This document shows positions 21,001 to 30,000 of a DNA stretch of 64,000 bases, one piece after another. The stretch comes from Gekko japonicus (Eukaryota). The DNA lies in NCBI RefSeq assembly GCF_001447785.1, contig NW_015162558.1, positions 124,001-188,000 on the forward strand. Direction: 5' to 3'. A program made the position numbers. Each line of letters begins with the position of its first letter. The stretch's first letter is position 1.

Positions 21001-24000
21001 CTGGCTGACCACTCGGGAGCCCCCGAGCGGGATGACTGCAACAGCAGCCTCCAGTCCGTGCTCCCCTGCAACTGCCTCTGGTGCTGGAAGGAGGAGATAA
21101 CAGTCGTGACTAGCAGCCATCGGCAGCCCTGTCCTCCATTAATTTGTCCACTCTCCTTTTAAAGTCTCCCAAACGGCCTTAAACATTTCCTTCTGGACCC
21201 ACCTTTCTTTCACTCCAGCTTACACCCCTCACTCTGACTGACGCTGGGCTTTTAAGAAATGCAGAGGGAAAGAACAATGCCGCCTTCTCCTTAATATCTA
21301 CTTCGACCCGGAGATCAGTGACGTTCCTTAAACCACCACCTCCCCCGCCCCCGAATCATAGGGAATTATGGGAAGCAACACCAAACATTTCTATTGACAT
21401 CCAGGTAACAGCCCTCTTTTATGGGCATGAGATTCACTTGAAAGAAAGCAACAACAGGATTTTGAGTGCATTCGACTCAGGTTTAAAATTAACGTGTCCT
21501 TATATCTGACCATGTAAATGTTGTGTCTGATATCTGAAGGTGCTAAAGTTCTGTTGTGAACAGACAAGGTCGAAATCTAGTAAATTCTTACAAGGGGCCA
21601 TGTGCCTGGCTGCTTACTCTACAAGTGTGGAATCTAATGTATCGAAAGGATGCACACAGAATTAAACTCTGTTGGTCTTCAAGGTGCCGCTGGACTCAAA
21701 CTTTGTTCTGCATCCTTCCAAGACAGGTTCCTAGTCCTCATGGCTGCCAACAGAAATCTAGAAATTCGAACTGATGATGACCCAGAAACTAGAGCAATCA
21801 CCTACCACAAATGGACTCTGCCAAGACGGAAATGACCAACGCGGGCACCATACGGGACCAAGCCCCTTTGTGTAAATGTGGTGTTTCTTAGGAATACATG
21901 CCTCATCTGTAAACCCTTAGCCACGTCCTGCCAGAACTTCTGCATGTGCCATCGTGTTTTCAGCCCAGGATCCAACTTTCTCCCCTCCAGCTTCACCCCA
22001 CTTGCTTCTCTGTTTAGCACATCGTCCCCAGGCCGGAGCTCTCACCTCATGGACCAAGTTGTCCTCTTGCATAGTCTGGAATGGCAGGTTTCGCAGCTTC
22101 TCCATCGTCTCGTACATGCCCTGGCACGAGCGCAGCTTGTCGACTGAGCCCAGGGTGTTCCGCAGCAGCACCAGGCCCACCCGGAAAACTATCTTCACCC
22201 CTGTGTGGATCACAAGCCGAGAGAGAGAGAAGAGTGTAACAGGCTGTATACTGGGGGGAGGCGGGAAGCGCAGCCTTCCTCTCTGTGAGATGCTGAGATG
22301 CAGGGAAGGAAAGAGAGGCGGGGGACTGTGCAGGGGGCACCTGGGGATTTCATCAGATGAATGGACAAAGCAGATCCCAGGTGCTCTTTATAGCACTTTA
22401 GGATAACCATGTCAAGCCTGGGATTGGGTAGAGGGTAGCCGGGGAACCCAGGCGCTCTTATCATTTTCGTCAAACATGTTCCTAGGCCTCAGACTACAAC
22501 CAGGTCAGCCAGTGGCTTGGGAATCCTCCTCCTGTTCAATAATGGAAGTTGAGTTTCTAGAAAAAAGAGCAGTTCTGTCTCTGGGGAGGCCGCTTTCCCT
22601 GTCAACTGGGAGGGAAAGGACACCAAGTGGCCAAACGCGCAAGGCTTTACGGGGACGGGAGGCCGAGTCTCACCTTCGCAGAAGAACATGTCCCAAACAC
22701 GCAGCACGGAGCACCAGGGCAAGGTCCGGGAGAAGATGCACATAAACCACTCGGTCATGTACAGGATGGGGTCGATCTTGTACCTCTTCAGGTGGCGGTA
22801 GGCAATGGGGGACACCCGCCGCAGGAGAGCAAAGAAGATCTCCCCGTCCAGCTGGATTGCCTCCTGCACGAGACACATTTTGGGGTGAAGAGGAAGTTGG
22901 AGACCCTGCAAACAGCGCCCTCTTTCTGTTCCCCCCGCCTGCTCCCGCTTTCCCTCCCATCACTGCCCTCCACTGAGAAAAGAGGAGCCAGAGGTTCAAA
23001 AGGTCACACAGTCTGGACATGCATGCACTGTACGCATCTACCCAAACGGTTAAGTATCTACAGCTTCTGCAGGAGGGCAGGGGAAAGATGTGGTCTAACT
23101 GTTATGAGATGGGGAAGGAGGCAGAAACTCTGCAGCCCAGTAGCAGCCCCAGAAAGGCAGGAGGGTAGTCTTTTTTATGCAGCTGTTCAAGGCAGTGTAA
23201 AAAGGCAAGGGGAACACAGAGGTGAACCTTTTCCTGGAGTGGGCATACGGCGATGCTGGGGGAAAGTGTCACCTGATCCCTGCCTGCTCCGCAAGCTGTT
23301 AAAGGCACAGAGCCTTCAGTTGTACAGAACCCTCGAGGGCCGGAATCAAACAGCCAGCCAGCCAACCCTCTCTCTCCCTCCCCGGCTTATATGAAAAGTT
23401 TTTGGTTTAATTAACGACACAACTTCACTTGTGACCAGCGACTCCATTGCAGTTCTCAAACAGGGCTGTCTCCCCCATTCAAGAAACCAATGAAATCGAC
23501 GTATGTGCTTGCACAGGAAGGGTTCTACTGATGGAAGCAACCAGTTACCTTTTTAGTCAATTAAGCAACCTGATTACTGAGTAAATGTTGCAGCTCCTTT
23601 CTCAAACTAGGTTAATCTTTAGGAAACGGAGGTCAGATTTGCCTGCCAGCTGCTGCACACAAGACATTACAAAACCGGCACCAGGAATCTGAGCACACCG
23701 TGTGTCTGTTCTCTACCAGGAGATTTCAAGTTGACTGGTATGTGTGTGTGTGTGGGGGGGGTGTACACGAGAGAAAGAAAATCAGGCTGCAAACAGAATG
23801 ATAATTTTTTTAGACCTCAGTCATGTGAATTGGTTTTGGCAGAAAAACAAGAGGTAAAATACACGTATGTGTGCTCTTTTTAAAAGCACATGTTTGCACT
23901 GCTGAATATTTCTAATCTAGAGGCTTCCTGACCCCTCCCAGGGGCCTCTGCCCTCTGGAAAGGCTCCCCTTTCTCTAGAAAGCGGAGTGCAAGGGAATTC

Positions 24001-27000: not shown

Positions 27001-30000
27001 ACACCCTCCCCGCCTACAGTCTCCATCCGAGAATCCCGGCTNNNNNNNNNNNNNNNNNNNNNNNNNNNNNNNNNNNNNNNNNNNNNNNNNNNNNNNNNNN
27101 NNNNNNNNNNNNNNNNNNNNNNNNNNNNNNNNNNNNNNNNNNNNNNNNNNNNNNNNNNNNNNNNNNNNNNNNNNNNNNNNNNNNNNNNNNNNNNNNNNNN
27201 NNNNNNNNNNNNNNNNNNNNNNNNNNNNNNNNNNNNNNNNNNNNNNNNNNNNNNNNNNNNNNNNNNNNNNNNNNNNNNNNNNNNNNNNNNNNNNNNNNNN
27301 NNNNNNNNNNNNCGTCCCCCCAGAAGAAATTAACACAGGACTACTTAACATAAAAAACCCGGATGCCAGTCGTGAACAATGTTCCCTCTAAGCTGTGGAG
27401 TCTTGTGAGCAAACATTCTACTTTGTGAGCTACCGGCATGAAAGTTGCGAGCAAGCGATTTGGCTGCTGCATACATTAGTTTGCTCTGGCGCCCTCCTTC
27501 CTGAGCTGAGACAACAATGTGTGAGCCAGAGGCTAAAAAACAGTGAGCTAGCTCACGCTAACTCAGCTTAGTGGGAACCCTGGTCGTGAATAGGTGTGGG
27601 CCTTGTTTGACTAGAATGGCCGCGCTCTGCCATTCAGCGGCAGGCTGCCAGTGCTCTGGTTCAGCTAGGAGGGAGCAGGATGCTGACCACACACGGGAGA
27701 GCTTCAAGAGGCAAAGGCTCTGCGGAGAAGGAGCCACTGGGCAGGCCTGGTGCCACGCCCGAGGAGCCCAGAACTTCTGGATCTGGCGCTGCCACCCCTC
27801 GCCCAAAGAAAAGGGGGGGGGGGACTAAACCAACCAAGCAAAAACCTCCAAGGTAAGTTTAGAAAACTTATTATTGAGGGCCAAAAGTTAAAACCATAAA
27901 TAAAAGAATGTTTATTTCAAAGACACATAAAACCATTGTAGGGGCCCAAATAAAACCTCCTAAAGTGTTCGAAGGGACAAATGCACAAGTAAGAACAATG
28001 TAGGACCCGACACATTTCAGCTCACAAGAGCCTTCTTCCGAGGTCAAATAGTACAAAGAACAAAATATACCGAGCAACAAAGTCCCTGTAACACATGTAA
28101 GGCAATAAACAATAATATAGGACCAAAAATGGAATGTTCCAATCTGGAATTGAATGACGCACCAAAAGATTTTTATTTGGGGCCACAAATATACCTTGCC
28201 TTGTGTCAGAAGTAGTTGCATATACTGGAAACAACATCAGGACCAATATGTACCTTCCAGTTTAGGTCCTAAGAGTGCAAGTAAAATTGCCTTATCAGGG
28301 ACCGTGTGACATCAATGTTTCCTTTGGAGGCTGCTGCCGTCGCTCACACAGATTTCAGACTGAGGCCATGCAACAGATACATTGACCAGCCAAGGATCTC
28401 AGGCTCCTTTCTACACTTCCCCACTATGCCCCACACCTTTCAGAGAGCACCTGAACCTGACAATGCAGTGGAACAGTTCCTCACCTCTGCGGGCATATTC
28501 ATCAGCAGAACCGCAGCAACAGGCGCCTGGGCTTGGCAGTACCCTTCCTCTGGCCGGTAGATGGTGTAGGCTTTCAGGATGCGGTAGAGGTCCTGCTGCC
28601 TGTGTGAGAGAGACAGAGGGGAGGATGAGAGCCAGGAACCTAGAACTTTTCTCCAGGCTCAAGATGGCGTCTAATCCAGGTATAGACCAAGAGGCTCAGA
28701 GGAGCATTTGAAGAGGGTATATAGCGCTTTGGCCTCTTGGAGACACCATTTCCAACCCAGGGCCCACCTAGCGATGCAGAGCTGCACACCAGTCTTGGGT
28801 GTGGGGCTGTAGGTTTAAGCCTGGACTCTGCCAAGTACCTAGAAGGGGCGTCTTTGCAAAGGCTCCTTAGGGGAGGGGCTGTGGCTCAGTGATGGAGCCT
28901 CCGCTTTGCACACAGAAAAACCCAGATCCAATCCCTGGCATTTCTTCTGAACAGTTCAAATAGACAAGCTTAGCCCAAGCTCGTCAGAAGCTTGGAAGCT
29001 AAGCAAGGTTGGCCACAGACAGTACTTAGATGGGAGACTTCCGAAGAAGTCCAGGGTTGCTACCCAGAGGAAGGCAATGGCAAAACACCTCTGCTCGTTT
29101 CTGGCTGGGAACACGGCATGGATGGGGGTTGCCATGAGTCGGTTCTGACTTGAAAGTGGGCTGCTGTTAGTAACTGGGCCTATGATACAAAGTAAGTCAA
29201 TGCATTTCCCAGTTCATGGGTCAAAGCACCACTGGGAATGCTGAAAGAGAGATGGGTTTTGTTTTGTTTTTTGTCAACAGTGCCTTACTTACTATGGGTC
29301 CAGTGTCCTCAGGTACAGGGAGAAAAGAGAGGAGCAAGAGCCACGGTGGGAAGGTGGAACAGGTGAACAGTGTACACATGCGTGTAGGAGTTCGGCAGCC
29401 AGGGAGGAATCTAGTATGTGGCTGATGCCTGCCTGACCTCGTGTAGCGACACTCTTCCCCTCTGCCGTCCACTCACCCATGGCCTCCCCGATCAACAAAT
29501 ATCTCGTGCAACGGGAACTGCCTGTGCAGGTCTTTCTCAATCACATCAAGCCACTTGGGATCTCCAGCTTGGCGCTCCAGTTCCTAATAAGACAGGCAGA
29601 CAGAGAGAGTAAAGAGAGTATGCTTGCATATTGTAGGCATTACAATACCAATAGCCCATGGTAGGCTCCATTAGATACTACAGCTATTATGAACATTGAA
29701 AATCTTCATTGATATCTTTGAAACGTCACCAGAGGAAATGAATTACTGAGAGACAGTATTTGTCTCACATCTCTGTTCGGAAGAAGAGCTACCTTCGAAA
29801 CGGCAAGACATTCTGGAGATCACCGTCAATTTTTCGTTATTATGTATATTATTACTGTTCACTTTTTGTGTAATTTATTCTTTGAAGAGATTTATTAAGC
29901 GTCACTTGTTCAGAGTTCTTCCTGGTTGAGGACAGCCAGATTTCTCTCGGGCCGGGGACCCCCAGGAAGTTCTTGTTTCCTGAGCACAGTCCTCTTCCAA

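What the first reader, a model, noticed from the sequence alone, without database searches (positions are those of the whole stretch)
21933..27400. In-frame tandem duplication of TBC1D10B exons 6-8
Seen: exons 6+7+8 total 66+190+155 = 411 nt (137 codons), phase 0 at both ends. They are present twice with intact splice sites and identical peptides (one synonymous difference). Introns differ by roughly 25-30 substitutions, a few small indels and one ~120-bp indel. If real, splicing through both copies gives a 948-aa GAP with a repeated C-terminal TBC subdomain, while skipping one block restores the 811-aa protein. About 1% divergence and a gap inside the second copy fit equally well with two alleles assembled in tandem.
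[Added by the scan's program, not by the reader: the finding's places include an assembly gap (unread letters, written N; its length is only estimated) at 27042 to 27312. Whether the letters on both sides are continuous or in frame is not known: test that first.]
Basis: partly seen in the sequence, partly recalled or inferred. Interest (0 to 1): 0.65.

Follow-up and report, generated by a model that had tools for sequence, protein, structure and literature searches.

The report
Duplicated TBC1D10B exons, probably assembly artefact
A draft gecko scaffold carries exons 6-8 of the RabGAP gene TBC1D10B twice, head to tail and in frame, but the second copy looks more like the animal's other allele placed beside the first than a real gene change, and only read data can settle it.

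Summary
A 2,600-bp unit (21933-24532) recurs directly at 24533-27399. The copies differ by 24 substitutions in 2,384 aligned bases (1.0%), two 2-bp indels and a 123-bp piece found only in copy B. Each copy carries minus-strand exons of 66, 190 and 155 nt with intact AG/GT sites and identical peptides. The only exon difference is one synonymous Leu codon.

The gene is TBC1D10B of a gecko, not human. By exon arithmetic it is 811 codons with one block and 948 with both.

The N run lies in an intron of copy B, 93 nt upstream of its exon 6. Its flanks are collinear with copy A, so it affects no reading frame.

No listed orthologue (0 of 120) carries the block twice.

Sequence alone cannot show whether the duplication exists in the animal. 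I lean to a false "exon gain" from a divergent haplotype (0.55). The divergence is at allele level. The exons are spared. A gap sits in copy B. The copy junction lies 22-24 bp inside an interspersed repeat, and contigs of this assembly tend to end beside repeats.

A real, recent tandem duplication (0.40) is favoured by the N-free junction with 2-bp microhomology. Read depth and junction-spanning reads would decide.

The parts
21933..24532 (-). Copy A of the 2,600-bp unit. It is the downstream copy in the sense of transcription and carries exons 6A, 7A and 8A.
24533..27399 (-). Copy B of the unit. It is the upstream copy in the sense of transcription, carries exons 6B, 7B and 8B, and contains the N run.
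24511..24534 (+). Copy junction (24532|24533). The last 22-24 bases of copy A are the first bases of a ~207-bp interspersed element. AG is shared by both sides (2-bp microhomology). There is no N.
27042..27312 (.). Assembly gap (271 N) inside the copy-B intron, 93 nt upstream of exon 6B. Its flanks are collinear with copy A.
24160..24225 (-). Exon 6A, 66 nt, phase 0 to 0.
   Evidence: Pfam RabGAP-TBC profile 109-129, E 0.075, below cut-off
22674..22863 (-). Exon 7A, 190 nt, phase 0 to 1.
   Evidence: Pfam RabGAP-TBC E 3.1e-16, profile 134-194 of 216
22046..22200 (-). Exon 8A, 155 nt, phase 1 to 0, ends ...LVHE. It holds the only exonic difference (22057).
26883..26948 (-). Exon 6B, 66 nt, same peptide as 6A.
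25274..25463 (-). Exon 7B, 190 nt, same peptide as 7A.
24646..24800 (-). Exon 8B, 155 nt, same peptide as 8A.
24226..24645 (-). The 420-nt hybrid intron that would join exon 8B to exon 6A if both blocks were transcribed. It has a GT donor, an AG acceptor and the normal pyrimidine tract.
   Evidence: arithmetic
26139..26261 (.). 123-bp stretch present only in copy B. It ends in C and A runs and has no other copy in the window. On its copy-A-aligned side, 7 substitutions and a 2-bp indel lie within about 110 bp.
27377..27585 (+). Complete ~207-bp interspersed element with 22-nt terminal inverted repeats. Its first bases form the end of the duplicated unit.
28485..28599 (-). Exon 5, 115 nt. It holds the YCQ motif, ends in phase 0 and is single copy.
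19538..20257 (-). Exon 9, the last coding exon, 240 codons before the stop. It starts in phase 0 and is single copy.

Best explanation
The second copy is most likely not a second piece of the genome. It is probably the animal's other haplotype of the same 2.6 kb, written next to the first copy by the assembly process. Ko et al. 2022 call this a false heterotype duplication giving a false exon gain. On this reading the gene has nine coding exons and encodes the ordinary 811-residue TBC1D10B.

Inferred route, not shown: the region is locally heterozygous (1% substitutions plus a 123-bp indel). Scaffolding or gap filling then attached sequence from the same region a second time, and the fill failed to close near the far end, leaving the N run.
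For: (1) The divergence is at allele level: 24 of 2,384 bases, 15 transitions and 9 transversions, plus three indels.

(2) Exons are spared. There is 1 synonymous change in 411 exonic nt against 23 in 1,973 other nt. About 4.8 exon changes are expected at the intron rate, Poisson P(<=1) = 0.048 (Fisher P = 0.10, so this is weak). Alleles of one constrained gene would show this. An unused extra copy would not.

(3) The right end of the unit lies 22-24 bp inside a ~207-bp repeat present in 13 long copies in the window. In this assembly 2 of 10 gap edges lie within 25 bp of a multi-copy repeat boundary, where 4.2% of positions do. My hand-computed binomial gives P about 0.06. So the junction sits where contigs of this assembly tend to end.

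(4) Copy B holds an unclosed gap 88 bp from its end, and the window has 5 gaps in 64 kb, so this is a gap-filled short-read style draft.

(5) Ko et al. 2022 (PMC9516828; passages and Table 1 read) report 3.7-15.9% of the three older assemblies they studied as falsely duplicated. Most is heterotype in the two Sanger-based assemblies and most is homotype in the Illumina one. They list false exon gains as a class, and say copies are most often separated by a gap but are sometimes joined by sequence that reads do not support, because of wrong gap filling.

(6) None of the 120 listed relatives carries any of three block motifs twice (0 of 120). The 16 named lepidosaur proteins fetched (15 squamates and the tuatara, including three geckos) were also read and each is single copy.

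(7) The block lies in a very conserved domain: the exon 7 peptide is 94-100% identical across reptiles and amphibians. A tolerated 137-residue insertion there is a priori unlikely (inference).
Against: The N gap is not between the copies. The A|B junction is continuous sequence with only a 2-bp shared AG. That is what a real tandem duplication looks like, and an assembler cannot make it by overlap.

The two copies share identical runs of 508, 439 and 386 bp. A de Bruijn-graph assembler would normally collapse allelic sequence there rather than write it twice. A real two-copy loop refilled by a gap closer would reproduce the observed layout naturally (inference).

A second gap-free tandem duplication stands 20 kb away (47338-48536, 96.4% identical). 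It is too diverged to be allelic, so real tandem duplications do occur at this locus.

The repeat-edge enrichment rests on 2 of 10 edges and is only marginal.

No repeat was found at the left breakpoint, 21933.
Confidence: 0.55

Rival explanations
1. It is a real, recent tandem duplication of 2.6 kb inside TBC1D10B in the sequenced gecko, fixed or polymorphic. It would have arisen by unequal exchange or template switching between intron 8 and intron 5. If the exchange was between two already diverged homologues, the 1% difference was there from the start. By default, splicing would include both blocks through a 420-nt hybrid intron. The product would be a 948-residue protein: a complete TBC domain followed by a second copy of its C-terminal part. 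The catalytic motifs, in exons 4 and 5, would not be duplicated.
For: The structure is exactly U-R-R'-D, with a continuous junction and 2-bp microhomology. All six splice sites are intact and the block is 137 whole codons. The hybrid intron has normal signals. Another gap-free tandem duplication lies nearby. The N run lies in the last stretch where the two copies are identical in the readable flanks, where a short-read assembler would have trouble with a true two-copy repeat (inference).
Against: Two facts need extra assumptions here: the allele-level divergence with spared exons, and the breakpoint 22-24 bp inside a repeat where contigs tend to end. No relative has the block twice, 0 of 120, though a young duplication would not be expected in other species. 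The domain is highly conserved. Published base rates of false duplication in draft assemblies are high.
Confidence: 0.4
2. It is an older real duplication whose copies are kept alike by gene conversion, with both exon sets under selection.
For: Exons are more alike than introns.
Against: Intron differences are spread over the whole unit and no long converted tract stands out. No related gecko protein shows the block twice. Nothing requires this extra process.
Confidence: 0.04

Closest known systems
False heterotype duplication / false exon gain in draft vertebrate assemblies (Ko et al. 2022, PMC9516828; passages read)
   Same: Two adjacent near-identical copies differ at haplotype level, lie inside one gene, add whole exons, and are linked with an assembly gap in a gap-rich draft scaffold.
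   Different: The gap is inside the second copy, 88 bp from its end, not between the copies. The copies are joined by continuous sequence. The defining read-based criteria (half depth, discordant pairs, single-copy k-mers) could not be tested.
Real intragenic tandem duplication of exons by non-homologous or microhomology-mediated joining (general knowledge, recalled)
   Same: Head-to-tail unit, breakpoints in two introns, 2-bp microhomology, frame preserved.
   Different: No read, transcript or second assembly supports the junction. One breakpoint sits at the edge of an interspersed repeat.
TBC1D10B (EPI64B) orthologues of squamates, e.g. Gekko kuhli P0004 and Heteronotia binoei P0005
   Same: The exon 7 peptide is 100% and 98% identical to these two. 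The whole gene maps exon by exon onto the window.
   Different: All orthologues carry the block once.
Proteins with two TBC domains (unnamed representative P0229, 620 aa)
   Same: The exon 7 peptide matches twice in one chain.
   Different: P0229 repeats the whole domain including the catalytic half, and is only distantly related. It is not a repeat of the C-terminal part alone.

Membership tests
RabGAP-TBC domain protein, TBC1D10B orthologue | Match to the Pfam RabGAP-TBC profile | tested here: met
   Exon 7 peptide E 3.1e-16, 60.2 bits (cut-off 25.2), profile 134-194 of 216. Exon 6 is weak (E 0.075, below cut-off). Exon 8 has no match on its own. Exon 7 also aligns to residues 207-251 of the TBC1D1 domain structure 3qye_A.
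RabGAP-TBC domain protein, TBC1D10B orthologue | Arginine-finger (IxxDxxR) and glutamine-finger (YxQ) motifs. The motif definitions are recalled, not from a call. | tested here: met
   IEKDLHRQ is read in the exon 4 translation and YCQ in the exon 5 translation. Both lie upstream of the duplicated block.
RabGAP-TBC domain protein, TBC1D10B orthologue | Best relatives are named TBC1D10B and the gene is collinear with them | tested here: met
   The top named hits are squamate TBC1D10B. tblastn of P0004 and P0005 maps exon 1 to exon 9 in order on the minus strand.
False heterotype duplication (Ko et al. 2022 criteria) | About half read depth on each copy | not testable with these tools
   No reads of this genome are available.
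False heterotype duplication (Ko et al. 2022 criteria) | [quoted passage not shown] | tested here: inconclusive
   There is no N at the junction 24532|24533. The only N run lies inside copy B. Whether reads support the junction could not be tested.
False heterotype duplication (Ko et al. 2022 criteria) | Discordant read pairs and haplotype-specific single-copy k-mers | not testable with these tools
   No reads are available.
False heterotype duplication (Ko et al. 2022 criteria) | Copies differ at the level of divergent haplotypes | tested here: inconclusive
   1.0% substitutions plus indels. The heterozygosity of this species is not known to me, and a young real duplication would look the same.
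Real tandem segmental duplication | A unique junction in continuous sequence with the layout U-R-R'-D | tested here: met
   This is met in the assembly only; read support is untested.
Real tandem segmental duplication | Full depth on both copies, and transcripts joining exon 8 to exon 6 | not testable with these tools
   No reads, no RNA data and no same-species protein were found. The best match to exon 9 is 96%, from Gekko kuhli.

The most novel reading that the evidence does not exclude
The duplication is real and both blocks are spliced in. This gecko would then make a 948-residue TBC1D10B with an intact catalytic TBC domain followed by a second, orphan copy of its C-terminal part. That would be a young, lineage-specific partial-domain duplication in an otherwise very conserved RabGAP.
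Probability: 0.25. Interest if true: 0.45.

Novelty: not a real feature. Interest (0 to 1): 0.2.

Why it matters
If false, it is a routine but useful warning. An annotator reading this scaffold would predict a 948-residue TBC1D10B with a repeated half-domain, and gene-family or selection studies on this gecko would inherit the error.

If real, it would be a natural test of whether a TBC RabGAP tolerates an extra C-terminal subdomain, and an example of very young exon-block duplication. It would still be a single-species curiosity rather than a new kind of system.

Tried and rejected
1. I looked for a protein of the same species that would show how the mRNA is spliced. The exon 9 search found nothing closer than 96% (Gekko kuhli). 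The 100% exon 7 hit P0001 and the unnamed P0003 and P0022 come from other species, since their intron-encoded or variable parts are only 53-78% identical.

2. I asked for the members of the P0004 cluster, which has 2 members and might include this species' own annotated protein. The tool answered that its database is off. This stayed unchecked.

3. I tested whether the left breakpoint 21933 sits at a repeat edge. No other copy of its flank occurs in the window. A 64-kb window cannot exclude a low-copy repeat.

4. I tested whether the flanks of each gap repeat one another, the classic unmerged-overlap signature. None of the 5 gaps shows it (0 of 5). One weak 73% match at the third gap is repeat-like.

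5. I tried to read an assembler k-mer size from two distances: first variant 89 bp from the unit start, and the 88-bp overlap after the gap. The numbers nearly agree but are off by one and fit no model cleanly, so I dropped the idea.

6. I considered a chimeric circularisation junction from a 2-5 kb mate-pair library as the source of the junction, because the period of 2.6 kb fits. The Gekko japonicus paper reports such libraries with SOAPdenovo and SSPACE (PMC4673495, Methods section read). The species of the window is not established and the idea is untested, so I keep it only as a possibility.

7. Rfam found nothing in the duplicated region.

8. Literature: 'TBC1D10B' with 'gecko' gave 0 papers, and 'TBC1D10B' with 'exon duplication' gave 0 papers.

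9. Of the best 150 representatives matched by exon 7, 4 had two matched stretches. I looked at one only (P0229, two whole TBC domains). The other three (94-125 aa) were not examined.
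Full report
**What is there**

The window is a gap-rich draft scaffold with five N runs in 64 kb. A 2,600-bp unit at 21933-24532 (copy A) is followed at once by a second copy at 24533-27399 (copy B).

In the 2,384 aligned, readable bases there are 24 substitutions (1.0%; 15 transitions, 9 transversions), two 2-bp indels and one 123-bp stretch present only in copy B (26139-26261). 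That stretch has no other copy in the window. Seven of the substitutions and one small indel crowd into the 110 bp beside it.

**The gene**

The gene runs on the minus strand. Each copy carries three exons of 66, 190 and 155 nt with AG acceptors and GT donors and identical peptides. The one exonic difference is TTG versus CTG, both Leu, at 22057/24657.

Searched exon by exon, the exon 7 peptide matches Pfam RabGAP-TBC (E 3.1e-16, profile positions 134-194 of 216). Exon 6 matches weakly at 109-129, and exon 8 alone gives nothing. Exon 7 also aligns to residues 207-251 of the TBC1D1 domain structure 3qye_A. The block is therefore the C-terminal part of the TBC domain.

The best named relatives are squamate TBC1D10B proteins:
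- Gekko kuhli P0004: 100% in exon 7, 91% in exon 1, 93-96% in exon 9
- Heteronotia binoei P0005: 98%, 81% and 89%

The window therefore comes from a gekkonid gecko close to Gekko. It is not human, and I did not establish the species.

tblastn of P0004 and P0005 maps the whole gene, and the splice sites were read directly:

| Exon | Coordinates | Length |
|---|---|---|
| 1 | 44234-43363 | 872 nt |
| 2 | 31716-31617 | 100 nt |
| 3 | 31492-31385 | 108 nt |
| 4 | 29583-29477 | 107 nt |
| 5 | 28599-28485 | 115 nt |
| block B, then block A | see above | 411 nt each |
| 9 | 20257-19538 | 720 nt before the stop |

Adding lengths gives 434 + 137 + 240 = 811 codons with one block and 948 with two.

I made no joined coding sequence or protein. 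The spliced model was searched exon by exon only. The joined step (search, fold or structure comparison of the 811- or 948-residue product) was left out.

The catalytic motifs, as I recall their definitions (IxxDxxR and YxQ), are read in exons 4 and 5. They lie upstream of the block and would not be duplicated.

**The gap**

The N run 27042-27312 lies in the copy-B version of intron 5 and begins 93 nt upstream of the exon 6B acceptor. Its left flank continues the alignment to copy A. Its right flank (27313-27400) equals the end of copy A at 88 of 88 bases.

The flanks are therefore collinear with copy A. About 128 bases are unaccounted for, against 271 N. No reading frame crosses the gap, and the acceptor region of exon 6B is fully read.

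**The junction**

Copy A ends with the first 22-24 bases of a ~207-bp interspersed element. The element is complete after copy B (27377-27585) and has 13 long copies in the window, including that one. It has 22-nt terminal inverted repeats.

At 24532|24533 the element is cut off and the unit starts again. The dinucleotide AG could belong to either side. There is no N at the junction. No repeat was found at the left breakpoint, 21933.

**Real or artefact: points towards an artefact**

No reads, no second assembly and no same-species transcript or protein were within reach. The open DNA collection holds only bacteria and archaea, so I did not use it. The cluster look-up was off. The question therefore rests on indirect evidence.

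- The divergence is what two haplotypes would show.
- Exons are spared: 1 change in 411 nt against 23 in 1,973. About 4.8 exon changes are expected at the intron rate, Poisson P(<=1) = 0.048, Fisher P = 0.10.
- Copy B carries an unclosed gap.
- The junction falls just inside a repeat. In this assembly 2 of 10 gap edges lie within 25 bp, and 3 of 10 within 65 bp, of a multi-copy repeat boundary, where 4.2% and 10.5% of positions do. My hand-computed binomial gives P about 0.06 for the first. The junction's own position relative to the element comes, not.
- Ko et al. 2022 (passages and Table 1 read) report that 3.7-15.9% of the three older assemblies they studied is falsely duplicated. Most is heterotype in the two Sanger-based assemblies and most is homotype in the Illumina one. 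False exon gains are a recognised class. The copies are usually separated by a gap but are sometimes joined by sequence unsupported by reads, after wrong gap filling.
- None of the 120 listed relatives has any of three block motifs twice.

**Real or artefact: points towards a real duplication**

- The layout is exactly that of a tandem duplication, with a continuous junction and 2-bp microhomology. No overlap-based assembly step would create that junction.
- The copies share identical runs of 508, 439 and 386 bp. A graph assembler would normally collapse such runs if they were allelic.
- A true two-copy loop refilled by a gap closer would give just this picture, with a leftover gap in the last identical stretch (inference).
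- A second gap-free tandem duplication stands 20 kb away (47338-47934 / 47935-48536, 96.4% identical). It is too diverged for alleles.

**Verdict**

I put a false duplication at 0.55, a real recent duplication (fixed or polymorphic) at 0.40, and an older duplication homogenised by gene conversion at 0.04.

If real, default splicing through a 420-nt hybrid intron (24226-24645, normal signals) would give a 948-residue protein. It would have a complete TBC domain plus an orphan copy of the domain's C-terminal part.

In the representative library, 146 of the best 150 matches to exon 7 have one matched stretch and 4 have two. The one I examined, P0229, repeats the whole TBC domain, not the C-terminal part. 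The other three were not examined.

**Literature and limits**

The searches 'TBC1D10B' + 'gecko' and 'TBC1D10B' + 'exon duplication' each returned 0 papers.

For the Gekko japonicus genome paper (PMC4673495) I read search passages and the assembly Methods section. It reports Illumina paired-end and 2-5 kb mate-pair libraries assembled with SOAPdenovo and SSPACE. Its supplements are closed and may hold the k-mer size, insert sizes and heterozygosity. I have not shown that the window is from that assembly.

For Ko et al. 2022 I read passages only. Its supplementary figures on depth gaps were not seen.

Noticed in passing
window 47338-48536: A second head-to-tail duplication: 47338-47934 and 47935-48536, period 597 bp, 96.4% identical, no N. 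It is intergenic, about 3 kb beyond the 5' end of TBC1D10B. It is too diverged for alleles, so it is probably a real, older tandem duplication.
   Followed up: partly
window 45894-47146: A tandem array with a period of about 250 bp. The 191-bp pieces at 46204 and 46455 are 99.5% alike.
   Followed up: no
window 12556-12761, 16449-16653, 16716-16922, 27377-27585, 32445-32857, 35188-35396, 37128-37334, 37687-37892, 39203-39403, 45534-45739, 56088-56293, 62947-63155: Thirteen copies of a ~207-bp interspersed element, 84-90% alike, with 22-nt terminal inverted repeats, so it looks like a MITE. Two gap edges (39203, 62925) sit at or within 22 bp of a copy.
   Followed up: partly
window 113-433, 8036-8356, 41585-41906; and 1752-2098, 14271-14602, 33664-34010, 36387-36736: Two families of 320-350-bp interspersed repeats at 94-96% identity, so probably young. 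They were not classified.
   Followed up: no
window 52113-52229 (+): A 5S rRNA match over the whole model, just above Rfam's gathering score (40.3 bits against 38). It overlaps a multi-copy interval (52128-52279), so it may be a 5S-derived repeat or a pseudogene.
   Followed up: no
window 12847-13536 (+): An open frame with a PH domain (Pfam E 8.3e-12), probably an exon of a neighbouring gene on the other strand from TBC1D10B.
   Followed up: no
window 15256-15329: An exact 37-bp unit repeated twice in tandem (100% identical). It could be a small real duplication or a gap-closing artefact.
   Followed up: no
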